Source: an uncultured Mycoplasmatota bacterium
GTDB taxonomy: Bacteria; Bacillota_I; Bacilli_A; RF39; UBA660
Length of the DNA: 64,000 nucleotides
Reading direction: 5' to 3'
Assembly (NCBI GenBank): GCA_900548725.1
Contig: URLV01000002.1
Coordinates: 2,312 to 66,311 of the forward strand
Under the pieces are notes generated by a model, which saw nothing but the letters and a program-made list of their open reading frames with translations, ran no database searches and had not been told where the DNA came from. This document shows, in pieces, positions 40,539 through 56,550 of the stretch. Position numbers and translations under genes: made by a program. Positions within the stretch are counted from its first letter, which is position 1. Each line of letters begins with the position of its first letter.

Positions 40539-41195
40539 CTATTTATTAGATTTTTTTACCTTATTATAAATTACCACAAAAGAAAATAATATTGTTATAA
40601 CAATTAAATAAATTATAATAACAAAAAATTTAGAAACATTACTTTGATTATTAATATTATTTTTATTAATTTTTAAAGATATTTTAATAGGCTTACTATT
40701 GTAATTTGTTCTATCAATATTCCATATATATGTATTACCATCTTTATTATCATAATTGCCACTCAACTTATAATCGGTTTTAACTGTAATATTAATATTC
40801 GATAAATAATTATAGTACTCAAAACACTTAAAATTATCCGAAGTATTTATATTTAAATAACCACTATTAGTATATACATCAACATTCTCATAACATTCTT
40901 TTAATAAAATTGATTGACCATAATTATTAAAATTGTATTTATTATAATAATTTATACCATATACATTATTATTATCTATATTTTCAATCAATAAATTATC
41001 TTTATTATTAATACTTTCTATTGCACCATATAAATTAGCATTAAAATCACTAATTAATTTATCATAATCTTCTTCATTTTTATTTATTAAAATACTACTT
41101 TTTTCTTCTATACCATCATCATTTATAATGATATCATAATTAGCAGAACAAGCCGTACATAATATTACTATAAAGATCAACATTATTTTTTTCAT
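40539..41195 (-). CDS. putative lipoprotein with C-terminal TM anchor
   Basis: MKKIMLIFIVILCTAC lipobox-like signal and a C-terminal hydrophobic segment FFVIIIYLIVITILFSFVVIY. Confidence 0.55.
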   Translation of the reverse strand: MKKIMLIFIVILCTACSANYDIIINDDGIEEKSSILINKNEEDYDKLISDFNANLYGAIESINNKDNLLIENIDNNNVYGINYYNKYNFNNYGQSILLKECYENVDVYTNSGYLNINTSDNFKCFEYYNYLSNINITVKTDYKLSGNYDNKDGNTYIWNIDRTNYNSKPIKISLKINKNNINNQSNVSKFFVIIIYLIVITILFSFVVIYNKVKKSNK

Positions 41196-41203
41196 TCATC
41201 CTC

Positions 41204-42625: not shown

Positions 42626-42641
42626 AATTTCACCACCTAAC

Positions 42642-43136
42642 TCACTTAATTTCTACAGTATAATCATCTAAATAAACCTCATAATTCATAATAGAATTTT
42701 CTTTAAATATAAATTGATTCTTGTTATTAGCAATAACGTTATAAACTTTCTTTCCATTAATACTAGAAACACTATATTTATCTATACCCAATGAATAAGT
42801 ATACTCTGTCACATTATTATCTAAATAACTTAAAAAATTATCATAATTATTAAATCTTTTTTCTCTATAATCTTTATTTAACAAATTATAAGCTTCTTCT
42901 TTATTATTAATTAATATATTTTTATAATCATTAAAATATTTTCTTATAACATCTTCAGTTGAAATATATAAATAATTAATTTCATTGATATCATAATGAT
43001 CTTTAATACCAAACTCATTATCTATATTTTTATCTTCACCAAAATTATAATTTGATAAAATAACAATTAAAATTACAATAAATACTAATGACAAACATAC
43101 AACAATTATTTTTTTATTATATTTTAAATCATTCAT
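42642..43136 (-). CDS. N-terminally anchored small protein in the VirB8/TcpC/PrgL-equivalent position (paralog of the next ORF)
   Basis: Single N-terminal TM segment plus a ~130-aa ectodomain. ATG 43136 has a GGAGG RBS and overlaps the upstream stop (ATGAATGA). Confidence 0.5.
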   Translation of the reverse strand: MNDLKYNKKIIVVCLSLVFIVILIVILSNYNFGEDKNIDNEFGIKDHYDINEINYLYISTEDVIRKYFNDYKNILINNKEEAYNLLNKDYREKRFNNYDNFLSYLDNNVTEYTYSLGIDKYSVSSINGKKVYNVIANNKNQFIFKENSIMNYEVYLDDYTVEIK

Positions 43137-43644
43137 TACTAACCTCCATATATTTATTACCATCAATAGGAGTTATACTAAATAAATTATTAGTTAAATC
43201 AAATTTAACAATATAATACTTATCAATTTTATCATTACTAATATTATCCAATTCATCACTAACTAAATATCCCTTAACATAATAATTAATAACTTTTTCA
43301 CTTAATTCAGTATAAAATACTTTCTTAGTAATGTAATTATAGTTACCATCTAAATTATCTACATAATTACTGACATTATCTGAAGAAATATTATTTTCCT
43401 CTACATAGTTTTTATCTAACAACTTCAAAACATTATCATATTTATTATTTTGTAAAGAAGTAACATACTTATTTATACAAGAATTTATTGTAAAAAATCT
43501 AGAATAATCATTTAATAAATAATATTTAGTTTCTTCTTTATCATCATTATTAGATTCTGTTTTATTTAAATACAATAATCCCAAAACAGAAACTAATATA
43601 CAAGTTATAATTATTAATAATATATAATTATCTTTTTTTTTCAT
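43129..43644 (-). CDS. N-terminally anchored small protein in the VirB8/TcpC/PrgL-equivalent position
   Basis: Single N-terminal TM segment plus a ~130-aa ectodomain. Same architecture and similar size as the neighbouring ORF. Confidence 0.5.
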   Translation of the reverse strand: MKKKDNYILLIIITCILVSVLGLLYLNKTESNNDDKEETKYYLLNDYSRFFTINSCINKYVTSLQNNKYDNVLKLLDKNYVEENNISSDNVSNYVDNLDGNYNYITKKVFYTELSEKVINYYVKGYLVSDELDNISNDKIDKYYIVKFDLTNNLFSITPIDGNKYMEVSNE

Positions 43645-43653
43645 ATTTAACTC

Positions 43654-45709: not shown

Positions 45710-47512
45710 TTAAAGTCCTCCACCAGTACCAAATGAATCTAACTCTTCTTGAGTTAATACCACATTTATTCTCATACGTCTAGCTCCGCAAACAAACAAT
45801 GCTTCACCTTGACTATAGCCTTTTATACTTTCCTTTTCATTATCATTCAAATCTATTAATTTACTTAAATCTTCAACAGCTTGTTTCTTAAGTCCCATAA
45901 CTAGATAATATGATGCATTATCAAATATTGCTTTACCATGCACTATAACATTTTCAGCAGCAAAATCTGTAGGTTGTTGAGTAATTATTATAGTACCAGT
46001 ATTATATTTTCTGCTACGTCTTTGCATTTGAGCTAAAAATTCAGCACCCAACTCATTTCTACCACCAAGTAACACATGAGCTTCATCAACCATAAGCACT
46101 GTATTAACACTAGGATCTAAACATAAACCCCAAGCATATTTTAATATATTAAAGAACAATGCATTTCTTATACTCTCATCACTATTCATTAATTCTCTTA
46201 TATTAAATACCATAAAGTCACTATCTTGTCTAATAGTTGTATGACCATTAAAATAGTATCTTAATTCTTTTACAAATGGACGAATTTTAAGTTCAAGCCT
46301 TTCCATAACATCTTTTTCACGTGTGGCTTCAGGCATAGATAATAATCTTCCTTTAATAGTACTATATACATCATCAAACGTTGGATAATCCCTAGATGTA
46401 AAATTACTAAAATCAGTATTAAAATCTATATTAAAACGTTTATAAGTATCTTGAACAACTTCACTAAACATTGCAAGGACATCTTCTTCAACATTAGGAC
46501 TATAATATTTCAAAAATGCTTTCAATGATTGTAAAGTACGTGTAAGTATAGTATAACCTAACCCTTGTTTTAATTCATCTTCATCAGCATCTGCAATTAC
46601 TTCAAGTGGATTAATTATACCAAAATCTCCACCTTTACCTAAATCAATAAAATCTCCACCAAAGGCTTTCGTCATTTCTTCTAATTCACCTTCAGGATCA
46701 ATACAAATTAATTGACAGCCATTACGTATGTGAGTTCTAAGCATCAATTTAGCAGCAGTACTTTTACCACTACCACTTGTACCTAAAATAATCATATTTG
46801 CATTATTTCTATTAAACTCTTTTTTTGTTTGATATAAAAATTGATTAAATAAAACAACTCCTCCAGAAAAATCTACTCCTAATAATGTTGGGGCAGTAAA
46901 CTCTCCACCCGGATCTTTTATGCTATCAAACACAAATGGATACATTGCAGCAATTGTAGGACTTGGTATAGGAATACCAACTCTTTCTTCAATATCTTGT
47001 TTTGGAAAAATTGGTATCATTGATTTAAGAACTTTTTCCTGTTCAAACATCATTGGTATACCTCTCATCCCTAATGCATCCAAGTAGTTTCTAGTTTGCA
47101 TTTTCTTAATTTCTAATTCTTCTTTTGAATCAGCGCTTAACATAACATGCATTTGAAAATCAAATATTTTAGATTGAGTAGCAGCAAGCATAGAAACAAA
47201 ACTTTCTAATGATTCATAATCTTGTCTTATTGATTCTTGCATTGTTCTATCATTTTCATGTTGATATCTTTCTTTTAAATCAGCAATCTCTTTATTAATC
47301 ATTTTACTCATAGTACTAAATTCAATAGGAATATGTTTAACAACAACTTTAACTCCAGGTAAATTAGTTATATTACTTAAAAAACCAGGAGGTATTAATT
47401 TAGGATAATTTATTATGGTAAGTATAGTACAATACTTATCACTTATAACAAAATCATTCAATTTAAAATCAATACCCTTAGGAGCAATTTCACTTTTAAA
47501 TGTACTAGACAC
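45710..47512 (-). CDS. VirB4-family T4SS ATPase, ATPase portion (600 aa, GTG start)
   Basis: Walker A ILGTSGSGKSTAAK and Walker B VLMVDEAHVLL. Starts at a GTG overlapping the upstream ORF by 8 nt. Confidence 0.85.
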   Translation of the reverse strand: MSSTFKSEIAPKGIDFKLNDFVISDKYCTILTIINYPKLIPPGFLSNITNLPGVKVVVKHIPIEFSTMSKMINKEIADLKERYQHENDRTMQESIRQDYESLESFVSMLAATQSKIFDFQMHVMLSADSKEELEIKKMQTRNYLDALGMRGIPMMFEQEKVLKSMIPIFPKQDIEERVGIPIPSPTIAAMYPFVFDSIKDPGGEFTAPTLLGVDFSGGVVLFNQFLYQTKKEFNRNNANMIILGTSGSGKSTAAKLMLRTHIRNGCQLICIDPEGELEEMTKAFGGDFIDLGKGGDFGIINPLEVIADADEDELKQGLGYTILTRTLQSLKAFLKYYSPNVEEDVLAMFSEVVQDTYKRFNIDFNTDFSNFTSRDYPTFDDVYSTIKGRLLSMPEATREKDVMERLELKIRPFVKELRYYFNGHTTIRQDSDFMVFNIRELMNSDESIRNALFFNILKYAWGLCLDPSVNTVLMVDEAHVLLGGRNELGAEFLAQMQRRSRKYNTGTIIITQQPTDFAAENVIVHGKAIFDNASYYLVMGLKKQAVEDLSKLIDLNDNEKESIKGYSQGEALFVCGARRMRINVVLTQEELDSFGTGGGL

Positions 47513-48062
47513 TACTCATCACCGTCCCAAACTCAGTTTTCATATTTCCATTAAAGAAACTATCTAATATAACTCTTAAATCATCATCACTAACTTGCCT
47601 AGAATTTAACCCACTAGTAGCTAAGTTAGCTATTAAATTATGTATTCTTTTTTGTAATATTTCCAATTTTTTATCTCTAAATAAAATATAATATTCAGTA
47701 TCAACTGCATTTACAGTAGTAGTTCTAAAACTTTCTCCTTTATCTATATCTTGTTGTATAAGTTTTCTAATTTGTTGAGTCTGTGCATTTGCATACATTA
47801 ATTGTAATTGAGCTAAATACATATTTATATCTACAGGTCTATCACATACCACTAACCAAAATTCATAATCTATTACGTTATAAAAATTTCTTAAGTTAAA
47901 TATTATATTATTTTGTTCTTGATAATCAAGTATAAATATATTTTTAGGTTCTATTCTTATTCCAGTAACGTAATAATTATTTTCTAATTGTATCATTCCA
48001 TTTTTTATATTTTTTATTGGAACCCAATCTTCTGTATATTTACTAGCATTATTTTTCGCCAT
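47505..48062 (-). CDS. VirB4 N-terminal domain encoded as a separate 185-aa ORF
   Basis: EDWVPIKNIKNGMIQLENNYYVTGIRIEPKNIFIL... looks like the N-terminal domain of single-chain Gram-positive VirB4 proteins (~780-830 aa). 185 + 600 aa adds up to that size. Confidence 0.6.
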   Translation of the reverse strand: MAKNNASKYTEDWVPIKNIKNGMIQLENNYYVTGIRIEPKNIFILDYQEQNNIIFNLRNFYNVIDYEFWLVVCDRPVDINMYLAQLQLMYANAQTQQIRKLIQQDIDKGESFRTTTVNAVDTEYYILFRDKKLEILQKRIHNLIANLATSGLNSRQVSDDDLRVILDSFFNGNMKTEFGTVMSSV

Positions 48063-48360
48063 GTTTCATACACCAACCTCTCCAAAAATATGTTCTTCTA
48101 TTTGTAAAATACATATATACATTTTTTATAAATGTTCTTATATTATGATGATTAGGTATAGGAAGTACTAAAAACGCTCCTATACATGCAGGACTTATTA
48201 TAAAGAGTAATTGTTTTAAACTATCTTTAGGTGTAAATAACAACAAGAATGTAAGTAAAAGTCCTGTACCAAATATAATCAAATCAGTAACATTGAAGAA
48301 ACCAAGTATCAACATTGATTTCTTCGAGTTAGCTGGTATCAAATAACTATTATTATCCAC
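48049..48360 (-). CDS. small two-TM protein, PrgI/VirB3-like by position
   Basis: 103 aa with two hydrophobic helices. Lies immediately upstream of, and overlaps, virB4, as PrgI and Orf17-type genes do. Confidence 0.5.
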   Translation of the reverse strand: MDNNSYLIPANSKKSMLILGFFNVTDLIIFGTGLLLTFLLLFTPKDSLKQLLFIISPACIGAFLVLPIPNHHNIRTFIKNVYMYFTNRRTYFWRGWCMKHGEK

Positions 48361-48372
48361 TTTTTATTCCTC

Positions 48373-50580
48373 CTATTTCTTTTCAGAACTTCCTTCTTTT
48401 TTCACTACATTTCTATTAGCAACATGTCTATCATAATTTTCGCCAAAGTCTTTTTGTGAATGTTGTGCTAATTGAGCAGATTCATTACCTAAAGCACCCA
48501 TAAGTCTACCTAACGTAGCAGCATCATCAATACTGTTCTCTTTCCAACCAGTACCTGCAATTTCTTTACCATCTTTATCATATTTAACACCCAAAGCACC
48601 TTTTGAAGCTTCTGAAACGATAGCATTTGCAGCTGATTGAATTGTACCAACATCCACACCTTTAATATTATAATCATCATTTAAATTTTGCAATTCTGTT
48701 TGTGTTTTAGCTTTCAATGCATTACCAACAACATCATTGACAGCTTTTTTCTCAACTTCAACCAGCCTTGATTGAAATTGTTGATATGCTTGATATGCTT
48801 TAGCTTTTTCAGTATCAGTTTTTGCACCAGAAATTGCTTGATATAAACCTTCTTCATATTTATGTAATTGATACAAATTACCAGTTACACCATTAACATC
48901 ATAAGTTTGCTTAGTATCTTCCTTATTCAATGCATCTTTTACAGTAGATTTAATCTTTTTAGCATTTTTCATTGCTTCGTCATTTCTCTTCATTCTCTCA
49001 GTAATATGCCACTTACCTTCTACTTCTCTATTTGCTCGTCTTTCATCTGCATCTGCTACTGTTTCCATACCAACAGCCAATCTAGCCCTGTCAAGTGTTC
49101 TTCCATATAAAGTAGATCCGTTCGCTTTTTCAGTTCTTATTTTATCAATTCCCTTTACAGCTTTATCATAACCACCAGTTGCACCACGAATAGCACCACT
49201 TAATGCTCCACCAACTATTCCACCAAAACCTTTTCCTGTTGTAGCCCCATAGACGCTTGCTCTTGTAGCGTTTGTAAGAGGATTTTCTTTAAGTTTCTTA
49301 AATCCACCTTTAACACTAAATCTTCCACTATTTCCAAAGAATTCTTTAATCAAATCTGGACACTCTTTACCAAATTGTAATATACCAAGGATTATAAATA
49401 CGGTTGCTAACGCTTGTATTACACCATTACTATCAATATCGCCAATACTACTAAATAAAGTTTTAATAACACCAGGAATCAAACTTACAGCAAATAAAGC
49501 AAAATTGATAATTAATAGTCTAATAAATACGTCTAAATACGTATCCTTAACATTTTTAAACCACTTATCAAAAAAAGCTTCTTTTTGTTTAGGAACAATC
49601 CTAAGCATCACAGCAATAGGTGAAAGTATTTGTAATACTCCCAATTTAGCAACACGAACACCAATTTCTATACAATAAGAAAAATACATAATTGCGGCTA
49701 TAACACCTGAAACAATAGCAAATAAAGCATTTAACTCCATTCCTTCTTTTGTATCATCTGTTGCACTATTAATCAAATATTTATCTTTAGTAAATTTTGA
49801 AGTATCGCCAGACAATTTAGAATATTCAACATCATAGTAATAATTAATACAAATTTGTTTATCATCATCAGTTCCAAAATCACCTGAAGCATGATTTTGC
49901 TCAACAAAAGTAACACAATCATCATAAGTAAAATTTGTCGGTCTATAAAAAGCAGACAATATTGTAGGAGCAACTAAATAAGCACCTTTTAATGATTTAA
50001 ACTTCTGAGTTTTTGTATTAAATTTATTACACTCTTGAGTTATTTCGTCTATTTTATTATCGACACCAAAACTTCCCTGACCTTTTATGATACCAGTACC
50101 ACTATAAGTTGCATAATTATCAAATCCATAATCAGAATAATTACAACTAATATCAACATTATCATTACTTCCAACATTATTAAGTATAATACTAGTTATT
50201 ATACCGGAATTAATTATGTTATTTTGAAATACATACATCCAGTTAAATATGGTTGGAAGCAATATTACTAAAACTAATGATATAATAGTTTCTTTAACTA
50301 CTTTAGTAGTACTTCCAGTACTCTTTTTATCATCAGGATTAATAATCATAAGCACAATGTTATACGCAAATATAAATAGCATAGCAATCCCCATAACTAC
50401 ATACATATTACGAGTAATTTGTGTAAAGGTTTCTCTATCAAACAAATTAACTTGAGTTATAGAAACAAACACCTGATACAATAAACCTATTACTCTATAT
50501 AACATATCACACAGCCACAACATCAATAAATTTATAGTTTCTTTAAACCATGACGCAGAACCTAAACTAAATAAATTCAC
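48373..50580 (-). CDS. polytopic VirB6-like channel protein with large C-terminal soluble domain
   Basis: At least 6 predicted TM helices in the first ~420 aa, then a ~300-aa hydrophilic, coiled-coil-like tail. Position matches PrgH/TcpH/ConG/Orf15. Confidence 0.65.
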   Translation of the reverse strand: MNLFSLGSASWFKETINLLMLWLCDMLYRVIGLLYQVFVSITQVNLFDRETFTQITRNMYVVMGIAMLFIFAYNIVLMIINPDDKKSTGSTTKVVKETIISLVLVILLPTIFNWMYVFQNNIINSGIITSIILNNVGSNDNVDISCNYSDYGFDNYATYSGTGIIKGQGSFGVDNKIDEITQECNKFNTKTQKFKSLKGAYLVAPTILSAFYRPTNFTYDDCVTFVEQNHASGDFGTDDDKQICINYYYDVEYSKLSGDTSKFTKDKYLINSATDDTKEGMELNALFAIVSGVIAAIMYFSYCIEIGVRVAKLGVLQILSPIAVMLRIVPKQKEAFFDKWFKNVKDTYLDVFIRLLIINFALFAVSLIPGVIKTLFSSIGDIDSNGVIQALATVFIILGILQFGKECPDLIKEFFGNSGRFSVKGGFKKLKENPLTNATRASVYGATTGKGFGGIVGGALSGAIRGATGGYDKAVKGIDKIRTEKANGSTLYGRTLDRARLAVGMETVADADERRANREVEGKWHITERMKRNDEAMKNAKKIKSTVKDALNKEDTKQTYDVNGVTGNLYQLHKYEEGLYQAISGAKTDTEKAKAYQAYQQFQSRLVEVEKKAVNDVVGNALKAKTQTELQNLNDDYNIKGVDVGTIQSAANAIVSEASKGALGVKYDKDGKEIAGTGWKENSIDDAATLGRLMGALGNESAQLAQHSQKDFGENYDRHVANRNVVKKEGSSEKK

Positions 50581-50590: not shown

Positions 50591-50941
50591 CTACTTTACA
50601 CAAACAGTACTATTAACCCCAGCCATATCTAAAAACATATTAATTAATACTGGTAAGAAAAAGAATATAACCGCTAATATTAATCTTTTAAGAAAAGTTT
50701 GATATGCTTTTTTAACGTCTTTTGCTTCTTTACTAGTTATAGCTTTAACAAAATCATAACTACTTAATCCAATAACAAGTAAAGGTATAATAATTTTTAA
50801 TAAATCAAATAAATTTTGTAAATCTTGTAAAGCATCACCCCATGCATTGCATTGTATACTGTCAGCAAATACAATAGTTTTAAAACCAAACATAACTAAA
50901 TATAAGCATAAAATTAATTTAACTATTCTTTTCTTTTTCAT
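50591..50941 (-). CDS. pilin-like (VirB2/TrbC-style) hairpin membrane protein, copy 2
   Basis: Signal peptide MKKKRIVKLILCLYLVMFGFKTIVFA, then a TM-loop-TM unit LLKIIIPLLVIGLSSYDFVKAI...KRLILAVIFFFLPVLI. GAGGAA RBS before ATG 50941. Confidence 0.6.
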   Translation of the reverse strand: MKKKRIVKLILCLYLVMFGFKTIVFADSIQCNAWGDALQDLQNLFDLLKIIIPLLVIGLSSYDFVKAITSKEAKDVKKAYQTFLKRLILAVIFFFLPVLINMFLDMAGVNSTVCVK

Positions 50942-51014
50942 ATATTTCCTCATTCTAAATATTACATTTATACTAATAAAGTATATCATAAAAAAAAACA
51001 ACAGTAAAGTTGTT

Positions 51015-51368
51015 TTAATTACATTTTGTTAATGGACTCAAGAAACAATCTTTACATGATTGGAATGATGAAGCATCATCAGCGTATCCTCTAGCAAATG
51101 TTTCAAAAATATAGAATATTATACTAGGTATTAAGAATATAACAATACCAGCAACTACTCTCATAAGTAATCTCTTAGTTTGTTTCTTTATCTCGTCATC
51201 CTTATCAGCAACAACTGCTTTACCAAAGTCAAATATACCTAATGCGACTATTAATATTGGAATAGCAATTTTAAATATTAAAATAATTCCTCCTATTAAT
51301 TGAATTATATCTTTAGTACTATTACAAAAAGAACTAACGTCAAATGCACCTAAACTTAATAAATTCAT
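51015..51368 (-). CDS. pilin-like (VirB2/TrbC-style) hairpin membrane protein, copy 1
   Basis: IFKIAIPILIVALGIFDFGKAVV...MRVVAGIVIFLIPSII. Same TM-loop-TM unit as 50591-50941 and as the C-terminus of 53412-54695. Confidence 0.6.
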   Translation of the reverse strand: MNLLSLGAFDVSSFCNSTKDIIQLIGGIILIFKIAIPILIVALGIFDFGKAVVADKDDEIKKQTKRLLMRVVAGIVIFLIPSIIFYIFETFARGYADDASSFQSCKDCFLSPLTKCN

Positions 51369-51430
51369 AATATACCTCTTCTTTCTTTATATCTCTATTT
51401 TAAAAAATATCTTATCTAATGTCAATAAAT

Positions 51431-52465
51431 TTATCTAAATTTACTAAACAAACCATGTTTTTTTACTTCTTTATTACATTTTGTATATCCTAATTTAACT
51501 AATAATCTATCAACACTAATTACTCTATCTATATTATCTCTAAAGTTAGAAACAACACTAAATATCTTACATTTAGTTTCTACTTCAAATTCACTTATAT
51601 TACTATCATCCATATTTGTTCTATTAAGTACTATTTTACTACCACTTAATTCTTCAAATATTTTACCATTTCTTTTAAGTAATTTAGTTATCTTAATGGT
51701 ACCAGGTTCCATTAAATAAATTATATCATTACAAAATTCTTTCGAATCATATTCATTCAAATCAACTATAACAGCATCTACATCTTGATGTTCTTTAATT
51801 TTTCTAAGTACATCATCCCTATTAGTACAAGAATAAATACTAGGAGTATTAAAGAATACAAAATCCTGTTTATTCATTTCTATCCCAATGGCTTTATAAT
51901 AAATATTTAATTGTTTAATCATCTGTACAACTAATGTAGTAGCTCCAGCATGCTCAGTTAAATTAACTACACCTATTATTTTTTTATTACCATCATATTC
52001 TCCAGGCAATGTAAAATCTTCAAATGTAAATTCTTTATTTTCTTGATTTATACCTAATTCACTATCAATTTCTTTATTTATATCATAATTACTTTTACTT
52101 ATTTGTAAATTACTTACATCATTATAAGTTTTAGGATTATTAAATAATTCTAAAATTTCATTATAATTAATAGTAAAATTATATACTCCTAAAGTAACTA
52201 AATCACTTATATATTCCTTATTATTAGTACTTTCATTCAAATATAGTATTACTTTATTACCATCTATATTACTAAATAATCTCTTTAAGTTACTATAATC
52301 ATGATAATCTTTTATACTAGTAACATCTAATATCATTTTATTAAAGAAAAAATTAGTAAACATACCTATTAATTCTTCAACACTATATACACCTTCAACA
52401 CTCTTTATTACATCAATAGTTAAATTATTTAATTCTTTTCTTTCATTACATACTATAACATTCAT
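51431..52465 (-). CDS. hypothetical cytoplasmic protein, possibly a degenerate ParA/MinD/TadZ-like P-loop fold
   Basis: KKIIGVVNLTEHAGATTLVVQMIKQL occupies the position of a KGGxGKTT Walker A but lacks both lysines. Later DAVIVDLN is Walker-B-like. The ~150-aa N-terminal domain is of unknown type. Confidence 0.35.
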   Translation of the reverse strand: MNVIVCNERKELNNLTIDVIKSVEGVYSVEELIGMFTNFFFNKMILDVTSIKDYHDYSNLKRLFSNIDGNKVILYLNESTNNKEYISDLVTLGVYNFTINYNEILELFNNPKTYNDVSNLQISKSNYDINKEIDSELGINQENKEFTFEDFTLPGEYDGNKKIIGVVNLTEHAGATTLVVQMIKQLNIYYKAIGIEMNKQDFVFFNTPSIYSCTNRDDVLRKIKEHQDVDAVIVDLNEYDSKEFCNDIIYLMEPGTIKITKLLKRNGKIFEELSGSKIVLNRTNMDDSNISEFEVETKCKIFSVVSNFRDNIDRVISVDRLLVKLGYTKCNKEVKKHGLFSKFR

Positions 52466-52476
52466 AACTATATCTC

Positions 52477-52956
52477 CTAACTACAAGTTCTTGAAGCACT
52501 TTCATCTTTAGCATAATATATTGATTCTGTTTCACCTTTTATTTTAAATGTTGTTAAGTTACCAATAACAGGTAAATCTACCCTAAAAAATACCATCACT
52601 CTATAATACGATTTATCTATATCAGTATTACTTCCAGTATTATCTTTAGCAACACAGTAATATCCTTTATTACTTCCAGTAACCTCATTTCCATTTAAAT
52701 CATAAGGTATATAATCAACACCATCAACATTAGTACACTCACCAGTAACCAAATAACCAACATCATTTAAATATTTACCAATATTTTTTCTAGCATTACA
52801 ATTATTACCTTCATATTTACTAATTAAATCTACTACGTTATTTTTTACATTAAACGCTTTACTATAATTTACGGAAATAGCCAAAAAAGAGGCAAAGAAC
52901 ACTATAAATGTTATTACCAACCCAAATAGCCAAGTTCCTCCAATTGCCTCTCTCAT
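52477..52956 (-). CDS. small exported/anchored protein with N-terminal hydrophobic helix and 4 Cys
   Basis: MREAIGGTWLFGLVITFIVFFASFLAI... followed by a ~125-aa hydrophilic domain. Confidence 0.5.
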   Translation of the reverse strand: MREAIGGTWLFGLVITFIVFFASFLAISVNYSKAFNVKNNVVDLISKYEGNNCNARKNIGKYLNDVGYLVTGECTNVDGVDYIPYDLNGNEVTGSNKGYYCVAKDNTGSNTDIDKSYYRVMVFFRVDLPVIGNLTTFKIKGETESIYYAKDESASRTCS

Positions 52957-52973
52957 ATTTTATTACCTCACTT

Positions 52974-53264
52974 TTATCTAGAAAAAATTATCATTCCACC
53001 AGTTGAAGTTCCAGTAGCTGTTTTATCCTTATCATCACAATATACCGTACCGGTTGTAGAACATGTATCATTTGTACAATATTCACACTTCATCTTTCCA
53101 CTATTACCATCAGGAGAACAATTAAAAGCTTGCGCACAATTAGTACTAGCAGTAATCCCTCTTTTTATACTAGGCCAAATCAATGTTGTAAACAACACTC
53201 CTACTGCTGCTATTGCAACTACTGCTACTGCAGTCATACTTAATTCTCCACTTGCTTCTTTCAT
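52974..53264 (-). CDS. small protein: N-terminal Ala/Val-rich hydrophobic helix + 6-Cys C-terminal domain
   Basis: MKEASGELSMTAVAVVAIAAVGVLFTT... The start is probably ATG 53264 (GAAAGGA RBS), downstream of an internal promoter. Confidence 0.5.
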   Translation of the reverse strand: MKEASGELSMTAVAVVAIAAVGVLFTTLIWPSIKRGITASTNCAQAFNCSPDGNSGKMKCEYCTNDTCSTTGTVYCDDKDKTATGTSTGGMIIFSR

Positions 53265-53411: not shown

Positions 53412-54695
53412 TTATCTAGAACCTCCACCAGTTCCACCACCAGAATAGCCACTACCTCCAGTTTCACTAGCAGATCCACCAGTTCCTTGTACTCTACCTG
53501 CAGTAGTTGTTGTGGTATTTCTATTTAAATATTCCTCATTCTCATTCACACTACAAACTTGTCCATTTAACGGATCTAATAAACAATTTGCACATATTTT
53601 ATAATCTTCTTTTTCAGTAACTTCTTCTAAATTAGAACTTATCTTAAAGAACGCTCCAACAATTGTTGGTAAAAAGAATATTGTCAATCCCCCAACAATT
53701 CTCCAAACTAATATTCTAAGTTGTTTTCCTAAAGCTTTATCATCTTGTCCATAAACAGCTTTAAAAATATCAAAGGATCCCATAATAATTATTATTAAAG
53801 GAATACAAATTTTAGCAATCATAAGTACATATCCAAATAATCTAAATACTTTTTTCACATCATCTTCCTGACAAGGCTTACTTGCAACATTCTCTTTCTT
53901 ATTTAAAACACAAGTAATTCCATCTTTAGAAACGTAACCTTCTGGACATTCTCCTGTTGTAGAATCAACTTTTTTACCATTACTATTACTGTTATTAACT
54001 TTCTCTGCATATAGAGTATAAAGACTTCCATCCCTTTTAATATTAAAATAATTTTTACTAACATTACAATTAAAGAAGTCGTCAACATTACTAGAATTAA
54101 TAGTAAATGAAACTTTTTCAGACACACTAGATCTAATAATTTCAGTTGGAACAGTTAAAACATCTGTTCCACTAAATGCTAAATTATCACCATACGTTTT
54201 ACCATCATATGTTACCGTAAATTTTCTAATACCACTACCAGAAGTTATAAATTTAAAATAAATACTATATGTAGACTTTATTTCTAAATCTAAATCATTC
54301 ATATTTATATTATTATTATAATTCGTATTTTTATTTAAACTAAGTTCACAAATATTTTCTTTTGAATCTTTATCGTATCCATTAAGCTTTAAAACTTCAG
54401 AGGAAGTATCTATTTCATCAGTCGTATCACCCAATTTATGCAAAAATACACTACCTGATTTTCCTATAGATAAATATTCATAACATTTATCAACATTTTT
54501 AAGATTTGACTTTTTATTATAACTTTTACCTTTATATTTCTTTACAGTAATTTTTTTTCCATCAGTTTCATACGATGCAGTAGTTTTACCATCTTTTGAT
54601 TTATATGAGCAAGTTTCTGCATAAACACTCTTATTTACAATAAAGAAACTAAACAAAGCAATAATAAATAGAAATATTTTTTTATTCATATTCAT
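53412..54695 (-). CDS. secreted ~280-aa ectodomain fused to a C-terminal pilin-like TM hairpin (copy 3) and a Gly/Ser tail
   Basis: Signal peptide ...IVNKSVYA. C-terminus IAKICIPLIIIIMGSFDIFKAVY...WRIVGGLTIFFLPTIV, then CANCLLDPLNGQVC and GGSGYSGGGTGGGSR. Start ambiguous (54689, 54695 or 54707). Confidence 0.6.
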   Translation of the reverse strand: MNMNKKIFLFIIALFSFFIVNKSVYAETCSYKSKDGKTTASYETDGKKITVKKYKGKSYNKKSNLKNVDKCYEYLSIGKSGSVFLHKLGDTTDEIDTSSEVLKLNGYDKDSKENICELSLNKNTNYNNNINMNDLDLEIKSTYSIYFKFITSGSGIRKFTVTYDGKTYGDNLAFSGTDVLTVPTEIIRSSVSEKVSFTINSSNVDDFFNCNVSKNYFNIKRDGSLYTLYAEKVNNSNSNGKKVDSTTGECPEGYVSKDGITCVLNKKENVASKPCQEDDVKKVFRLFGYVLMIAKICIPLIIIIMGSFDIFKAVYGQDDKALGKQLRILVWRIVGGLTIFFLPTIVGAFFKISSNLEEVTEKEDYKICANCLLDPLNGQVCSVNENEEYLNRNTTTTTAGRVQGTGGSASETGGSGYSGGGTGGGSR

Positions 54696-55794
54696 ATTTA
54701 TCACCACTCTTACTTAATACAAATTTTTTATATATATAATAAGCACCAGCTAATATAGATAATATTAAAACAATTATAAATAATATTTTTATAAAATTAG
54801 ATTTTTTCTTAACTCTAATATTTATATTATATTTATTAACAGTAACTCCATCTTCTGCAGTAACACTTATAATAACTTTACTTCCATCTTTTAAATTATT
54901 ATTTCCACTAACGTCTGTAATTTTAGCATTTTTATCTTCTGCTTCCATAGACATATCTAACTCATTAACGCCACTATCAATAATTAATGTATAATCAAAT
55001 TTATTAGAATTAAATTCTATATCATAGTCATTTATAATTAGTGATTTTAATTTAGCATTACTTGATAATTTAGTTTCTTCAACTTTTTTTACAGTTATTT
55101 TATATTGATTAGTACTACCATCACTACCAGTAACAATTATACTAATTACACTTCCATTAACAATATTACTATTACCAGTTATATCGACTTTACTGTTACT
55201 ATCAGCAGGAACTGCATTAACGTTTATAGAATTAACATTACTTTCTACTTCTATTTGATACTCATTTATATCACTATTAAATTCTATATTTCCAATTGAT
55301 AATGTTAATGAAGCTAATTTTGTATTAACAACAATTTGCGTTGTTGTAGTTTGAGTAGTAGTTGTTGTTGACTTAGTTGTATTATATCTTTTTCTAGTAG
55401 TTGTAGTATAAAAACTTTCTCCATTACTTTTTCTAGAACAATCATAATACATTAAAACTGAACAATATTTTACAATAGAATTATTCTTTTCCGAACTTGT
55501 ACATGATAAATTATCACATCCATTTTTTTCCATTTTTACATAAGGATTAATATTTCCATTAGAACAAGTCACTCTATTATTATTATAATATTTAGTTTTA
55601 CTATCTCTACATTTATATTCCATACAATGACCAAAATAAATATCTTTATTTATACTTATACTACTATCTTGATATTTGCTTGTACATTCATTTAAATTGC
55701 CACCTGAATACACAGAACTACTTGCAGTTCTTGCATTTACAAATAGTGGTAAACTTACTAACATTATTACAAACAACAAAACTTTTTTATACAT
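54682..55794 (-). CDS. surface protein: Cys-rich N-domain, Thr-rich linker, two cadherin-like beta-sandwich repeats, C-terminal TM anchor
   Basis: Signal peptide. The repeats LASLTLSIGNIEFNSDINEYQIEV...YKITVKK and LKSLIINDYDIEFNSNKFDYTLII...YNINIRVKK fit the cadherin-like (PF12733-type) pattern. No LPXTG. Confidence 0.65.
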   Translation of the reverse strand: MYKKVLLFVIMLVSLPLFVNARTASSSVYSGGNLNECTSKYQDSSISINKDIYFGHCMEYKCRDSKTKYYNNNRVTCSNGNINPYVKMEKNGCDNLSCTSSEKNNSIVKYCSVLMYYDCSRKSNGESFYTTTTRKRYNTTKSTTTTTQTTTTQIVVNTKLASLTLSIGNIEFNSDINEYQIEVESNVNSINVNAVPADSNSKVDITGNSNIVNGSVISIIVTGSDGSTNQYKITVKKVEETKLSSNAKLKSLIINDYDIEFNSNKFDYTLIIDSGVNELDMSMEAEDKNAKITDVSGNNNLKDGSKVIISVTAEDGVTVNKYNINIRVKKKSNFIKILFIIVLILSILAGAYYIYKKFVLSKSGDKYEYE

Positions 55795-55805
55795 AATAAC
55801 ACTCC

Positions 55806-55835
55806 TTAAAAAAGAAGATAATACGATTATCTTCT
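55806..55835 (-). terminator. hairpin + T-run inside the adhesin gene set (terminator or attenuator)
   Basis: Minus strand: AGAAGATAAT-CGT-ATTATCTTCT followed by TTTTT, running directly into the AAGGAG RBS of the 370-aa ORF. Confidence 0.5.
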
Positions 55836-55888
55836 ACATTTATTAATCATATTCTATATAAATATGATATACCATTTTTATTATAAAA

Positions 55889-56536
55889 TCAAATGTTTTT
55901 AAACAAATTATATTTTTTTACACACATCATGAATATACCAGATATCAGTGCAACTAACCCTAATACAATGAAATATGCTGTAACACCAGTTTGTTCTTGA
56001 TTTACAGTAGATGATGAATTGTAATTAGAATTAGTAGAAGGCGTAGTAGTTGTTGTACTTCCACTACCATTTCCATTATCAGTTAATTCAATATACGTTC
56101 CTTTAGATTCATTAGTACATACAACTTGATAATCTTCACTCCAATATCCATCTCCAGTATAATTTAATGATGAATTTTTAGTTTTATCAAATCTATCTTT
56201 TCCACTAGCAGCTAATTGATAAACTATATATTTTTCACCTGTAGAACAAGTGACACTTTTATTTAATGCATTTTTTAACGAATCATCATTACTAGCAGCA
56301 TATGTATTAGTACAACTACTACCAGTACATACCGCCTTACCATATAAGGTAACATTAGCACTACTATATGTTTCTGAAGAAGAAAGTGTAATTTTTTGCA
56401 AACCTTGATTATATTTAGACTTCAATTCTTCAAAATTACTTTGCGTACTATCAGCATTGGTTGCCGCAAATACATTAATTTGCAAACAACTAATTACAAT
56501 CACTAAAGTAAACAATTTAAAAATTATCTTTTTCAT
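55889..56536 (-). CDS. secreted protein with C-terminal sorting-signal-like tail
   Basis: Start at ATG 56536 (GAGGTG RBS) gives the signal peptide MKKIIFKLFTLVIVISCLQINVFA. C-terminus EQTGV followed by a TM segment and KKYNLFKNI, parallel to the tail of 2783-4171. Confidence 0.6.
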   Translation of the reverse strand: MKKIIFKLFTLVIVISCLQINVFAATNADSTQSNFEELKSKYNQGLQKITLSSSETYSSANVTLYGKAVCTGSSCTNTYAASNDDSLKNALNKSVTCSTGEKYIVYQLAASGKDRFDKTKNSSLNYTGDGYWSEDYQVVCTNESKGTYIELTDNGNGSGSTTTTTPSTNSNYNSSSTVNQEQTGVTAYFIVLGLVALISGIFMMCVKKYNLFKNI

Positions 56537-56550
56537 ATTTAACACCTCTA

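What the first reader, a model, noticed from the sequence alone, without database searches (positions are those of the whole stretch)
50591..51368. Three paralogous pilin-like TM-hairpin modules, one fused to a ~280-aa ectodomain
SEEN: the same ~55-aa unit occurs three times.
- Copy 1 (51015-51368): IFKIAIPILIVALGIFDFGKAVVADKDDEIKKQTKRLLMRVVAGIVIFLIPSII.
- Copy 2 (50591-50941): LLKIIIPLLVIGLSSYDFVKAITSKEAKDVKKAYQTFLKRLILAVIFFFLPVLI.
- Copy 3: IAKICIPLIIIIMGSFDIFKAVYGQDDKALGKQLRILVWRIVGGLTIFFLPTIV, at the C-terminus of the 431-aa ORF (about 53640-53849).

The shared pattern is KIxIPL-TM-(F/Y)D(F/I)xKA-charged loop-R-TM-FF(L)P. Each copy is followed by Cys-containing tails. Copy 2 also has a long cleavable-looking signal peptide.

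ESTABLISHED: VirB2/TrbC conjugative pilins are small hairpins of two TM helices behind a long signal peptide. Pilin-like conjugal proteins of this general shape have been annotated in Mollicutes ICEs.

INFERENCE: these are a multi-copy pilin set. The third copy would be a pilin carrying a covalently attached ectodomain, which suggests a tip adhesin. Gram-positive T4SS are generally thought to lack pili, so this would be unusual.
Basis: partly seen in the sequence, partly recalled or inferred. Interest (0 to 1): 0.72.

Follow-up and report, generated by a model that had tools for sequence, protein, structure and literature searches.

The report
VirB2-like pilin set in gut Bacilli
Three related two-helix membrane proteins, one carrying a large hypervariable outer domain, belong to the pilin family of type IV secretion systems and sit in a chromosomal, apparently non-mobile secretion machine of uncultured gut Bacilli, a group of bacteria said to lack such pilins.

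Summary
Three paralogous hairpin modules occur at the stated coordinates, with pairwise BLASTP E-values of 3e-13, 2e-13 and 7e-5.

They belong to the PF18895 "T4SS_pilin" (VirB2-like) superfamily. The window copies score below the Pfam cut-off, but 21 of 30 copy-1 orthologues match, and 15 of 32 diverse modules (best E 4e-8).

They lie directly upstream of VirB6, VirB3 and a split VirB4. This 21-kb cluster keeps its gene order in about 30 species-level gut, rumen and digester MAGs labelled Bacilli or Mollicutes. Where upstream sequence is held, the cluster starts beside RNase J. I found no relaxase.

Copy 1 has its own near-consensus promoter, conserved in 44 of 46 loci, as expected for a major subunit.

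The fusion protein keeps its signal peptide and module, but its ectodomain has no detectable match in 26 related species-level loci. Nothing shows that it is an adhesin or sits at a tip.

The topology is N-out, C-out, with a cytoplasmic loop.

The closest known analogue is the relaxase-less T4SS of Patescibacteria with its VirB2-like pilin arrays. Pilus formation is inferred, not shown.

The parts
51015..51368 (-). Copy 1: 117-aa VirB2-like hairpin with no signal peptide and no appended domain. Proposed major subunit.
   Evidence: ORF. 105 homologues of about 116 aa. 21 of 30 family members hit PF18895, best E 2.6e-6. AlphaFold2 gives a helical hairpin, H19-53 and H57-91, mean pLDDT 75. Conserved Cys15, Cys105, Cys108 and Cys116.
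51397..51425 (-). Near-consensus sigma-70 promoter (TTGACA-17-TAAAAT), about 28 nt upstream of the copy-1 start codon.
   Evidence: Best-scoring site in 48-60 kb. A match of at least 10 of 12, at 22-38 nt from the start codon, is present in 44 of 46 related loci. Other cluster genes show 0-2 such loci, apart from the Flp-like gene (27 of 39), copy 2 (16 of 34) and the two cadherin-like surface protein genes (10 of 33 and 4 of 16).
50591..50941 (-). Copy 2: 116-aa VirB2-like hairpin behind a cleavable-looking signal peptide, 10 nt upstream of virB6.
   Evidence: PF18895 E=2.9e-3. An orthologue is present at this position in most loci. In some loci it is 297-390 aa long with an N-terminal extension.
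53412..54707 (-). Fusion protein of 431 aa (likely start at 54695, MNMNKK). Signal peptide 54615-54707; hypervariable beta-rich ectodomain about 53874-54614; VirB2-like module with Cys tails 53553-53873; Thr/Gly-rich tail 53415-53552.
   Evidence: In 17 homologues the signal peptide and module are conserved but the ectodomains are unrelated. The ectodomain has no BLASTP hit in 26 species-level loci. AlphaFold2: residues 120-235 beta-rich at pLDDT 74-90, the rest low. No Foldseek match.
48373..50580 (-). VirB6-like polytopic membrane protein (735 aa) with a possible degenerate pilin-like hairpin at residues 59-114.
   Evidence: NF045848 E=1.6e-13. PF18895 E=2.3e-4 on residues 59-114. hhalign against the module E=0.02, inconclusive.
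45710..48360 (-). VirB3-like protein (48049-48360), VirB4 N-domain protein (47505-48062, TrsD-like) and VirB4 ATPase (45710-47512), as three overlapping ORFs.
   Evidence: The three ORFs match consecutive parts of NF045975 (2-80, 97-281, 295-891). The split is conserved in every locus with VirB4. PF26593 TraC-like is recorded on the orthologue in L052.
38222..45693 (-). Rest of the T4SS: M23 peptidase (43654-45693), two bitopic proteins (43129-43644 and 42642-43166), M15 peptidase (41204-42625), a 218-aa protein (40539-41195) and the VirD4 coupling protein (38222-40519).
   Evidence: Pfam hits. Synteny across loci.
51431..53264 (-). Tad/Flp-like genes embedded between the fusion gene and copy 1: an Flp-like small pilin candidate (52974-53264), a TadE-like bitopic protein (52477-52956) and a cytoplasmic 344-aa protein with a degenerate TadZ-like P-loop (51431-52465).
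   Evidence: Invariant N-terminus MKEASGELSMTAIAVVAIAAIG. In the related contig L052 these genes follow an RcpC/CpaB-like gene, a T2SSE ATPase and two genes without a Pfam hit. Pfam gives only hints (Pilin_N 0.1, Tad 0.078, DUF4320 0.004). hhalign of the 344-aa family against the unnamed 'AAA family ATPase' of plasmid pBMB68, encoded beside that plasmid's pilus-type ATPase, gives E=0.011.
54682..59724 (-). Cys-rich surface proteins with cadherin-like beta-sandwich domains and C-terminal TM anchors (370 aa and 1057 aa), plus a 239-aa membrane protein. They form the upstream end of the conserved cluster.
   Evidence: PF12733 E=1e-13 and 4e-21. TM segments and Cys counts. Synteny.

Best explanation
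The three modules are VirB2-family (T4SS pilin-type) subunits of a chromosomally fixed, relaxase-less MPF-FATA-like type IV secretion system in an uncultured low-GC lineage of gut Bacilli.

SHOWN
- Each module is a hairpin of two long helices joined by a short basic loop.
- Each has one invariant Cys before helix 1 and one after helix 2.
- The signal peptides and the Cys-rich exported parts fix the topology as N-out, C-out, with the loop in the cytoplasm.
- The genes lie immediately upstream of virB6-virB3-virB4.
- Copy 1 has no appended domain, is the most conserved of the three, and has its own conserved near-consensus promoter.

INFERRED
- The hairpins insert through Sec or YidC, and the two outer tails are locked by a disulfide. 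This would be a functional analogue of the head-to-tail cyclisation of T-pilin and TrbC.
- The split VirB4 ATPase, anchored by VirB3, extracts them from the membrane on the VirB6 platform.
- They polymerise into a tube, either a short wall-spanning conduit or a true pilus, through a breach made by the M23 and M15 peptidases.
- Copy 1 is the major subunit. Copy 2 is a second structural or initiating subunit.
- The ectodomain-bearing paralogue is a minor subunit that displays a fast-evolving, strain-specific domain on the outside of the structure. In the solved pili of this family the termini face outward.
- Because there is no relaxase and the ATPase is as conserved as a housekeeping gene, the machine probably serves cell-to-cell interaction or exchange rather than self-transfer of a mobile element. 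This has been proposed for the Patescibacteria T4SS.
For: HOMOLOGY
- PF18895 T4SS_pilin is the top family for copy 1, copy 2 and the VirB6 N-terminus.
- 21 of 30 copy-1 orthologues match it, best E 2.6e-6. 15 of 32 diverse modules match, best E 4.2e-8.
- Single cross-hits to T4SS_CagC and DUF4134. From memory, DUF4134 is the CTnDOT TraE family, which the 2014 survey relates to VirB2.
- The precomputed Pfam column lists PF18895 for several homologues.

STRUCTURE AND TOPOLOGY
- AlphaFold2 hairpin.
- TM segments, charge distribution, signal peptides and Cys positions.

CONTEXT
- The order fusion, Flp-like, TadE-like, 344-aa, copy 1, copy 2, VirB6, VirB3, VirB4N, VirB4C, M23 is conserved in about 30 of 46 genome loci and in two metagenome contigs.
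- There are 1-4 modules per locus.

EXPRESSION SIGNAL
- Promoter before copy 1 in 44 of 46 loci, against a background of 0-2 for most other cluster genes.

EVOLUTIONARY RATES
- Median identity across 26 loci: VirB4C 85%. RNase J is also 85% (measured in the 8 of these loci that hold it).
- Copy 1 51%, copy 2 42%, fusion module 39%. The ectodomain is undetectable.

MOBILITY
- No relaxase or integrase in Pfam scans of the window's larger ORFs. The flanks are RNase J/MiaB and the S10 ribosomal operon.

PRECEDENT
- Patescibacteria carry chromosomal, mostly relaxase-less MPF-FATA-like T4SS with arrays of 2-11 VirB2-like pilins, a separate TrsD protein and peptidases downstream of virB4. The pilin array is essential in a cultured strain.
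- VirB4-driven dislocation of membrane VirB2 and the VirB6 assembly platform are described in the literature cited.
Against: - No filament has been seen, and polymerisation is pure inference.
- The window's own copies score below the Pfam gathering threshold (19.1 and 18.1 bits vs 26.6).
- No hit to PF04956 TrbC/VirB2 in any scan.
- Foldseek and a sequence profile found no solved pilin. Simple hairpins score poorly in such searches, so this is weak evidence.
- Copy 1 lacks the long leader typical of VirB2 and TraA.
- Ten loci keep the surface protein, the Tad-like genes and copy 1, but are followed by housekeeping genes instead of VirB6/VirB4.
- Module-enzyme fusions occur among housekeeping genes, although one lies 1.7 kb from a VirB6-like/copy-2-like pair.
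- No VirB5-like tip protein was recognised.
- The loop is more conserved than the exposed tails. That would also fit a protein that stays in the membrane and contacts a cytoplasmic partner.
Confidence: 0.55

Rival explanations
1. The hairpins are membrane-resident T4SS components or anchors. They are homologous to VirB2 but never leave the membrane. They form part of the translocon around VirB6 and tether variable ectodomains (binding domains, hydrolases) at the cell surface near the secretion site. No pilus or tube is built.
For: - Gram-positive T4SS are not known to make pili.
- The cytoplasmic loop and TM helices are the most conserved parts.
- The module is attached to enzymes (esterase, C39-like peptidase) and a Big_2 domain at its C-terminal end. 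GDSL lipase also occurs in two or three members, position not determined. This is what one would expect of a generic anchor.
- Some such genes lie among housekeeping genes.
- VirB2 is required even in Gram-negative systems that make no pilus (review text).
Against: - Copy 1 has no ectodomain to anchor. Yet it is the most conserved copy, is present in every locus, and is the only T4SS gene with a strong dedicated promoter in nearly every locus. That points to a high-copy structural role.
- Both tails carry invariant cysteines positioned to close the hairpin, which a simple anchor does not need.
- The helices are about 35 residues long, longer than a membrane span.
Confidence: 0.3
2. Copy 1 (and perhaps its paralogues) works with the embedded Tad/Flp-like pilus genes rather than with VirB4/VirB6, for example as an assembly platform or anchor of a type IVc pilus. 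Its resemblance to T4SS pilins is then secondary.
For: - In ten loci copy 1 stays with the surface protein, the TadE-like and Flp-like genes and the 344-aa gene, while VirB6/VirB4 are not adjacent.
- In L052 the same genes continue upstream into RcpC-like, T2SSE ATPase and two genes without a Pfam hit.
- The window encodes a prepilin peptidase and a T2SSF platform protein elsewhere.
Against: - The sequence family is T4SS_pilin, not any known Tad component.
- Known Tad systems have no such hairpin protein (my own knowledge).
- Copy 2 abuts virB6 in most loci, and the VirB6-like/copy-2-like pair recurs on its own in L048.
- In the ten reduced loci the rest of the genome could not be inspected, so VirB genes may simply lie elsewhere.
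Confidence: 0.1
3. The resemblance among the three copies and to pilins is a by-product of hydrophobic composition, so the 'family' has no meaning.
For: - TM hairpins give spurious low-level matches. Many unrelated membrane families appear at E of 1e-2 to 1e-3.
- Foldseek found nothing specific.
Against: - Composition-adjusted BLASTP E-values reach 1e-13.
- Polar motifs are conserved (FDxxKA, basic loop, R, FFxPT), and Cys residues are invariant in the soluble tails.
- Gene position is conserved across 46 loci.
- There are 5,836 representative clusters at E<=1e-10.
- PF18895 is by far the most frequent family hit, whereas the others are scattered singletons.
Confidence: 0.02

Closest known systems
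VirB2-like pilin arrays of the Patescibacteria (CPR) chromosomal T4SS (Wang et al. 2023, as cited in the two papers read; Quinonero-Coronel et al. 2025, PMC12102498; review PMC12857230)
   Same: - Monoderm host.
- Chromosomal, relaxase-less MPF-FATA-like T4SS.
- Separate VirB3, TrsD-like VirB4 N-domain and VirB4 ATPase.
- VirB6.
- Peptidases (M23) downstream of virB4.
- Several divergent PF18895-type pilin genes in an array.
- A type IV pilus system in the same organism.
   Different: - The host here is a genuine member of Bacilli: its uL2 is closest to those of Bacillus, Listeria and Staphylococcus.
- VirD4 is part of the cluster.
- The pilin modules carry disulfide-capable tails.
- One or more modules are fused to large hypervariable ectodomains or enzymes.
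- Tad-like genes are interleaved with the pilin genes.
- Whether the two systems are directly related (VirB4 phylogeny) was not tested.
Conjugative pilins VirB2 / TrbC / TraA of Gram-negative T4SS (PF04956 and relatives)
   Same: - Small helical hairpin with a basic loop.
- N-out, C-out membrane topology.
- Gene next to virB3/virB4/virB6.
- Signal peptide on two of the three copies.
   Different: - No PF04956 match and no significant structural match.
- Longer, with Cys-rich tails.
- Copy 1 has no leader.
- No VirB5 partner and no outer membrane to cross.
- As far as I know, no fusion of these pilins to domains of 100-400 aa has been described.
Archaeal Ced/Ted DNA-import pili (CedA1, TedC; Beltran et al. 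2023, PMC9905601, listed but not read)
   Same: VirB2-like subunits, proven to form pili, in a monoderm, chromosomally encoded, relaxase-independent VirB4/VirB6 system.
   Different: - A different domain of life.
- No sequence link was tested here.
- Those systems import DNA and lack a VirD4-type coupling protein in the cluster (my own knowledge).
Mycoplasma ICE conjugation module (Mbov_0395 pilin-like protein NF045849, MMCAP2_0566, Mbov_0397 VirB4)
   Same: The best NCBIfam matches for VirB4 (351 bits), VirB6 (E 1.6e-13) and, weakly, copy 1 (E 5e-3) come from this set. The order is the same: small hairpin, then polytopic protein, then VirB4.
   Different: - All scores are below the family cut-offs.
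- The mycoplasma genes are on a mobile ICE, with VirB3 and VirB4 in a single 894-aa protein.
- No ectodomain fusions, peptidases or Tad-like genes are reported there.
Bartonella Trw T4SS with multiple variant VirB2/VirB5 copies
   Same: Tandem, sequence-variable pilin paralogues, thought to diversify surface interactions.
   Different: A Gram-negative system that lacks VirD4. Variation lies in whole small pilins and VirB5, not in appended ectodomains.
Bacillus thuringiensis conjugative plasmid pBMB68 (NZ_CP010581.1)
   Same: - Closest plasmid VirB4, at 29% identity.
- Gene order VirD4, 126-aa leader-plus-hairpin protein, TrbL/VirB6, PrgI, VirB4 N-domain protein, VirB4 ATPase, cell-wall hydrolase.
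- Further on: DUF5411, a SAF-domain (CpaB-like, my reading) protein, an unnamed AAA ATPase and a T2SS/T4P/T4SS-family ATPase.
- Its SAF-domain protein is homologous to the RcpC-like gene of L052 (E 1.6e-29).
   Different: - It is a true mobile element with a MobP3 relaxase.
- Its 126-aa hairpin is not detected by the module profile (E 4.5).
- Single pilin-like gene, no ectodomain fusion.

Membership tests
Pfam PF18895 T4SS_pilin (VirB2-like superfamily) | HMM score at or above the gathering threshold (26.6 bits) | tested here: inconclusive
   Window copies score 19.1 bits (copy 1) and 18.1 bits (copy 2), below the cut-off. The fusion has no hit. However, 21 of 30 orthologues and 15 of 32 diverse modules match at E<0.01, best 2.6e-6 and 4.2e-8, and the precomputed annotation lists PF18895 for several.
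VirB2-type conjugative pilin | Two long hydrophobic helices forming a hairpin, joined by a short basic loop | tested here: met
   AlphaFold2 gives H19-53 and H57-91 with a 3-residue turn. Hydropathy segments at 28-46 and 67-85; the loop carries 7 K/R.
VirB2-type conjugative pilin | Membrane topology with both termini outside and the loop in the cytoplasm before assembly | tested here: met
   Deduced from the signal peptides on copy 2 and the fusion, the exported Cys-rich ectodomain, invariant Cys in both tails and the basic loop. No dedicated topology predictor was available.
VirB2-type conjugative pilin | Gene located beside virB3/virB4/virB6 | tested here: met
   Copy 2 ends 10 nt before virB6. 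The order is conserved in about 30 genome loci and in contigs L051 and L052.
VirB2-type conjugative pilin | Sequence or fold match to experimentally proven pilins (PF04956 TrbC/VirB2, solved pilus structures) | tested here: not met
   No PF04956 hit. A profile against PDB sequences found nothing relevant. The best Foldseek hit against the PDB had E=2.2 and no pilin was listed. Hairpins are poorly discriminated by these methods.
VirB2-type conjugative pilin | Polymerises, with lipid, into an extracellular tube | not testable with these tools
   Needs multimer modelling or microscopy. The only indirect support is the conserved strong promoter of copy 1.
NCBIfam NF045849 Mbov_0395 family pilin-like conjugal transfer protein (Mollicutes ICE) | HMM score of at least 40 bits | tested here: not met
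   Copy 1 scores 16.4 bits, E=5.4e-3. Copies 2 and 3 have no hit.
Patescibacteria-type non-conjugative T4SS | Chromosomal location without a relaxase | tested here: met
   No relaxase or integrase domain in the window's ORFs scanned with Pfam. The flanks are housekeeping genes. The same chromosomal position next to RNase J is seen in every locus that holds the upstream flank. Caveat: three ORFs (18774-22868) have no Pfam hit, and the rest of the genome was not seen.
Patescibacteria-type non-conjugative T4SS | Separate VirB3, TrsD-like VirB4 N-domain and VirB4 ATPase; array of 2-11 VirB2-like genes; peptidase downstream of virB4 | tested here: met
   compared with the description. Phylogenetic placement of VirB4 relative to the Patescibacteria clade was not tested.
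Tad/Flp type IVc pilus (for the embedded 95-, 159- and 344-aa genes) | Flp prepilin motif G/XXXXEY, TadE/TadZ profile matches, adjacent TadA (T2SSE) ATPase | tested here: inconclusive
   - The N-terminus MKEASG/ELSMTAIAVV has a Gly followed by a hydrophobic stretch, but no EY.
- Pfam gives only hints: Pilin_N 0.1, Tad 0.078, DUF4320 0.004.
- Profiles against PDB sequences found nothing.
- The window cluster has no T2SSE gene, but the orthologous cluster in L052 has RcpC-like and T2SSE genes directly upstream.
- A prepilin peptidase and a T2SSF protein lie at 15511-18015.

The most novel reading that the evidence does not exclude
A whole lineage of uncultured gut Bacilli keeps, at a fixed chromosomal site, a domesticated conjugation machine that has lost its relaxase. 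It builds a Gram-positive conjugative-type pilus or conduit from disulfide-locked VirB2-like subunits and uses the same hairpin as a carrier to display fast-evolving binding domains and hydrolases. This would be the Bacillota counterpart, and possibly the source lineage, of the essential 'epibiont' T4SS of Patescibacteria. It would imply that these bacteria interact physically with other cells through it.
Probability: 0.25. Interest if true: 0.85.

Novelty: new variant of a known kind. Interest (0 to 1): 0.64.

Why it matters
Current reviews state that Gram-positive T4SS have no VirB2 pilin, with Patescibacteria as the single exception.

The 2025 Patescibacteria study left one question open. 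Either the MPF-FATA-type system those bacteria acquired already had VirB2-like pilins, or it co-opted them from elsewhere.

A conserved VirB2-like array inside an MPF-FATA-like T4SS of true Bacilli bears directly on that question. It gives a concrete set of sequences for a VirB4 and VirB2 phylogeny. A related layout also occurs on a Bacillus conjugative plasmid.

The finding also points to a large unannotated protein family: 9,684 representative clusters at E<=1e-3. In this family a pilin-type hairpin is joined to variable extracellular domains. If the hairpin polymerises, that would be a new way of decorating a secretion pilus.

Finally, the T4SS ATPase is as conserved as RNase J. This suggests the machine is important for the lifestyle of a common but uncultured group of gut bacteria.

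Tried and rejected
1. Foldseek of the copy-1 model against the PDB: best E=2.2, generic helical hairpins only. Uninformative rather than negative.
2. Copy-1 family profile against PDB sequences: only chance GPCR and glutamate-receptor hits.
3. AlphaFold2 of the fusion protein plus Foldseek: part of the ectodomain is a confident beta structure, but no match below E=0.18. No support for an adhesin fold.
4. tblastn of copy 1 against 72,556 plasmids: no match.
5. A third homologue search with a diverse module alignment returned only close copy-1 relatives in the rows shown. It did not reach annotated distant pilins.
7. 'Fourth copy' at the VirB6 N-terminus: Pfam hint, but hhalign E=0.02, probability 2%. 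Left as possible.
8. The Flp-like, TadE-like and 344-aa families against PDB profiles and Pfam: nothing significant. Their Tad-like assignment rests on context in L052 and pBMB68.
9. Literature searches found nothing describing this system: RF39 plus type IV secretion, 'T4SS_pilin', 'VirB2-like' plus monoderm, CAG-582, Ventrenecus. I could not establish the order-level taxonomy of the organism.
10. The 645-aa and 409-aa ORFs at 18774-21937 against PDB sequences: nothing.
11. Considered and rejected: frameshift artefact for the split VirB4 (conserved in all loci); a mobile ICE (fixed synteny, no relaxase found); a type IV (PilA-like) pilin identity for the modules (they have two TM helices and no class III signal).
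Full report
THE OBSERVATION

All genes discussed are on the minus strand.
- The three quoted peptides are present exactly as written.
- Copy 1 is the 117-aa ORF 51015-51368.
- Copy 2 is the 116-aa ORF 50591-50941.
- Copy 3 is residues 297-350 (53658-53819) of the 431-aa ORF 53412-54707.
- Composition-adjusted BLASTP gives E=3e-13 (copy 1 vs copy 2), 2e-13 (copy 1 vs fusion) and 7e-5 (copy 2 vs fusion). The paralogy is real.

The homologous unit is longer than the 55 aa quoted.
- Across 32 diverse modules from related genomes, one Cys before helix 1 and one after helix 2 are invariant. So are the loop Lys and the Pro of the FFxPT motif.
- The copy-1 family has four conserved Cys and a nearly invariant stretch FDFGKAVVAEKEDEIKKQTKR.

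WHAT FAMILY IT IS

- Against Pfam, the best family for copy 1 and for copy 2 is PF18895 T4SS_pilin, but below the gathering score (19.1 and 18.1 bits vs 26.6).
- The link holds at family level. 21 of 30 copy-1 orthologues match PF18895, best E 2.6e-6. So do 15 of 32 diverse modules, including copy-2-type and fusion-type ones, best E 4.2e-8.
- There are single cross-hits to CagC and DUF4134. All other families appear as scattered singletons.
- PF04956 TrbC/VirB2 never matched.
- The Mollicutes-ICE 'pilin-like' NCBIfam model is hit only weakly (16.4 vs 40 bits).
- AlphaFold2 with 30 sequences predicts two 35-residue helices (19-53 and 57-91) joined by a three-residue turn, at mean pLDDT 75.
- Foldseek against the PDB and a sequence profile against PDB chains found no pilin. 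I treat this as uninformative, because a bare hairpin scores poorly in such searches.

TOPOLOGY

- Copy 2 and the fusion begin with signal peptides.
- The fusion's exported part is Cys-rich, and all modules have Cys in both tails.
- The loop carries the excess of Lys and Arg.
- Hence both termini are outside and the loop is in the cytoplasm.
- This is the established arrangement of F-pilin and VirB2 in the membrane before assembly (my own knowledge). In assembled pili the loop lines the lumen.

GENOMIC SETTING

The modules lie in a cluster of about 21 kb (38222-59724), in this order:
- two Cys-rich cadherin-like surface proteins and a 239-aa membrane protein;
- the fusion protein;
- three small conserved genes;
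- copy 1, then copy 2;
- a VirB6-like protein;
- a VirB3-like protein, a VirB4 N-domain protein and the VirB4 ATPase, as three ORFs;
- an M23 peptidase and two bitopic proteins;
- an M15 peptidase and a 218-aa protein;
- VirD4.

The flanks are RNase J/MiaB on one side. A glycosyltransferase and the S10 ribosomal operon lie on the other. No relaxase or integrase domain was found in the window. GC content is uniform across the cluster and its flanks.

The organism is a genuine member of Bacilli. Its uL2 scores about 420 bits against Bacillus, Listeria and Staphylococcus, about 340 against Thermus and about 306 against Mycoplasma.

CONSERVATION ELSEWHERE

- A scan of one genome per species returned 46 loci. 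All are gut, rumen or digester MAGs labelled Bacilli, Mollicutes, Tenericutes or Erysipelotrichaceae, plus a few labelled Muribaculaceae, Phocaeicola, Clostridium, Bacillales or only 'bacterium'.
- In about 30 loci the whole gene order is kept. Where the held sequence reaches far enough upstream, the cluster starts next to RNase J.
- The three-ORF VirB3/VirB4N/VirB4C split is present in every such locus, so it is not a frameshift.
- Median identity to the window across 26 loci: VirB4C 85%. RNase J is also 85% (measured in the 8 of these loci that hold it).
- The same measure gives copy 1 51%, copy 2 42% and fusion module 39%. The fusion ectodomain has no detectable hit at all.
- This is a vertically inherited, strongly constrained machine whose exposed parts evolve fast.
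- The closest plasmid VirB4 is only 29% identical, and copy 1 has no plasmid match.

THE FUSION PROTEIN

- Its 17 database homologues share the signal peptide, the module and the Cys tail. Their ectodomains have quite different lengths and sequences, in several alternative types.
- AlphaFold2 gives a confident beta-rich domain for residues 120-235 only. Foldseek finds nothing below E=0.18.
- A profile search of 1.84 billion representative proteins found 9,684 clusters at E<=1e-3 and 5,836 at E<=1e-10. Most of the best 150 hits have the module at the C-terminus of a 200-500-aa protein. That profile also contained signal-peptide columns, which favours long forms.
- Most appended regions have no Pfam domain. 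A few have the module first and then Big_2, an alpha/beta-hydrolase or a C39-like peptidase. GDSL lipases also occur in two or three members, position not determined.
- The hairpin is therefore a carrier for many kinds of extracellular domain, at either end. 'Adhesin' and 'tip' are not supported by any result.

AN INDEPENDENT CLUE TO STOICHIOMETRY

- The best sigma-70-like site in 48-60 kb (TTGACA-17-TAAAAT, 51425-51397) lies in the 62-nt gap before copy 1.
- A match of at least 10 of 12, at 22-38 nt from the start codon, is present in 44 of 46 loci.
- The same measure gives 27 of 39 for the small Flp-like gene and 16 of 34 for copy 2. It gives 10 of 33 and 4 of 16 for the two cadherin-like surface protein genes.
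- It gives 0-2 for the fusion gene, VirB6, VirB3, VirB4, M23 and the remaining cluster genes.
- A dedicated strong promoter inside an operon is what one expects of a subunit needed in many copies.

The three genes between the fusion and copy 1 look like type IVc (Tad/Flp) pilus parts.
- The first is a small protein with an invariant N-terminus MKEASG/ELSMTAIAVVAIAAIG and a Cys-rich tail.
- The second is a bitopic protein.
- The third is a cytoplasmic 344-aa protein with a degenerate 'HAGATTL' P-loop.
- Pfam and PDB searches gave only hints.
- In a related metagenome contig (L052) the same genes are directly preceded by an RcpC/CpaB-like gene, a T2SSE ATPase and two genes without a Pfam hit. 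They are followed by five module genes, VirB6, VirB3 and the split VirB4.
- The Bacillus thuringiensis conjugative plasmid pBMB68 has the same composite layout plus a MobP3 relaxase. In order: VirD4; a 126-aa leader-plus-hairpin protein; TrbL/VirB6; PrgI; a VirB4 N-domain protein; VirB4; a hydrolase. Further on come DUF5411, a SAF-domain protein, an unnamed AAA ATPase and a T2SS/T4P/T4SS-family ATPase. I read these last three as CpaB-, TadZ- and TadA-like.
- The window also encodes a prepilin peptidase and a T2SSF protein at 15511-18015.
- The chromosomal cluster thus looks like a domesticated descendant of a Gram-positive conjugation module that already combined a T4SS with a Tad-like pilus.

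POINTS THAT CUT THE OTHER WAY

- Ten loci keep the surface protein, the Tad-like genes and copy 1, but are followed by housekeeping genes rather than VirB6/VirB4. I could not see the rest of those genomes.
- One module-esterase fusion lies among Mur ligase genes, though 1.7 kb from a VirB6-like/copy-2-like pair.
- These cases keep two rivals alive. One is that the hairpin is a membrane-resident component or anchor. The other is that copy 1 serves the Tad-like system.

COMPARISON WITH WHAT IS KNOWN

- The 2014 profile survey found no pilin homologues in MPF-FATA systems and noted that monoderms lack VirB2.
- A December 2025 review repeats that VirB2 and VirB5 are absent from Gram-positive T4SS, except in Patescibacteria.
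- The Patescibacteria system is chromosomal and mostly relaxase-less. It has separate VirB3, TrsD and VirB4, a VirB6, peptidases after virB4 and arrays of 2-11 divergent VirB2-like genes found with PF18895 and PF04956. Its pilin array is essential in a cultured strain.
- The present cluster matches that description feature by feature, but sits in Bacilli. It adds VirD4 in the cluster, disulfide-capable tails, ectodomain fusions and interleaved Tad-like genes.
- I found no paper describing it.

VERDICT

- That the modules are VirB2-family T4SS components is well supported (about 0.85).
- That they polymerise into a conduit or pilus, with copy 1 as the major subunit, is the best reading but is inferred (about 0.5). 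The full mechanism as stated in the best explanation gets 0.55.
- That the fusion is a tip adhesin is unsupported (about 0.2).
- I class the finding as a new variant of a known kind.

Noticed in passing
window 51431-53264 (-); L052 866-8224: Three conserved genes between the fusion gene and copy 1 look like Tad/Flp pilus parts: a small pilin-like protein with invariant N-terminus MKEASGELSMTAIAVVAIAAIG, a bitopic TadE-like protein, and a 344-aa protein with a degenerate TadZ-like P-loop. In contig L052 they are preceded by an RcpC/CpaB-like gene, a T2SSE ATPase and two genes without a Pfam hit.
   Followed up: partly
window 45710-48360 (-): VirB4 is encoded as three overlapping ORFs: VirB3-like (103 aa), N-domain (185 aa) and ATPase (600 aa). 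They match consecutive parts of the 894-aa mycoplasma VirB4 model. The split is conserved in all related loci, like TrsD plus VirB4 in Patescibacteria.
   Followed up: yes
window 15511-18015 (-): A prepilin peptidase (A24) and a 581-aa protein with two T2SSF domains lie 20 kb from the T4SS cluster. No T2SSE ATPase was found in the window. Just upstream of them (at higher coordinates), ORFs of 147, 645, 409 and 305 aa (18341-22868) have no Pfam hit. The 645-aa and 409-aa ORFs also have no PDB sequence hit.
   Followed up: partly
window 54682-59724 (-): The exported proteins of the cluster are unusually rich in cysteine: about 28 Cys in the 1057-aa cadherin-like protein, 8 in the 370-aa one, and Cys in every pilin-like tail. 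This implies systematic disulfide bonding of surface proteins in this bacterium.
   Followed up: no
window 48373-50580 (-), residues 1-120: The VirB6-like protein starts with MNLFSLG, like copy 1 (MNLLSLG). It contains a highly conserved hairpin (MLFIFAYN...INPDDKKSTG...LLPTIFNY) that weakly resembles the pilin module: Pfam E 2e-4, hhalign E 0.02.
   Followed up: partly
L019, L027, L028, L029, L031, L033, L034, L036, L038 (around 6000-10400): A clade of MAGs has only surface protein, TadE-like, Flp-like (1-3 tandem copies), TadE-like, 344-aa protein and copy 1. DnaB_2/DnaI-like genes and RNase J lie upstream. Housekeeping genes follow, and no VirB6/VirB4 lies nearby.
   Followed up: partly
L054 (plasmid pBMB68, NZ_CP010581.1) 9667-10047: A Bacillus thuringiensis conjugative plasmid encodes an unannotated 126-aa protein between VirD4 and TrbL/VirB6. 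It has a long leader and a two-helix hairpin, which is a VirB2-like layout. The plasmid also has a split VirB4 and Tad-like genes. The hairpin is not detected by the module profile.
   Followed up: partly
L009, L010, L012, L013, L014, L018: Several loci carrying this Bacilli-type cluster come from MAGs labelled Muribaculaceae or Phocaeicola vulgatus. These are probably binning or labelling errors in the public records.
   Followed up: no
window 41204-45693 (-): Two different cell-wall peptidases belong to the cluster: an M23 peptidase (679 aa) and an M15 (VanY-like) D-Ala-D-Ala carboxypeptidase domain protein (473 aa). They take the place of the usual VirB1-type lytic transglycosylase or CHAP enzyme.
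   Followed up: no
L047-L050; P0230, P0254, P0266, P0289: Some family members have the hairpin at the N-terminus, followed by a C39-like peptidase, an alpha/beta-hydrolase or a Big_2 domain. GDSL lipase domains occur in two or three others.
   Followed up: partly
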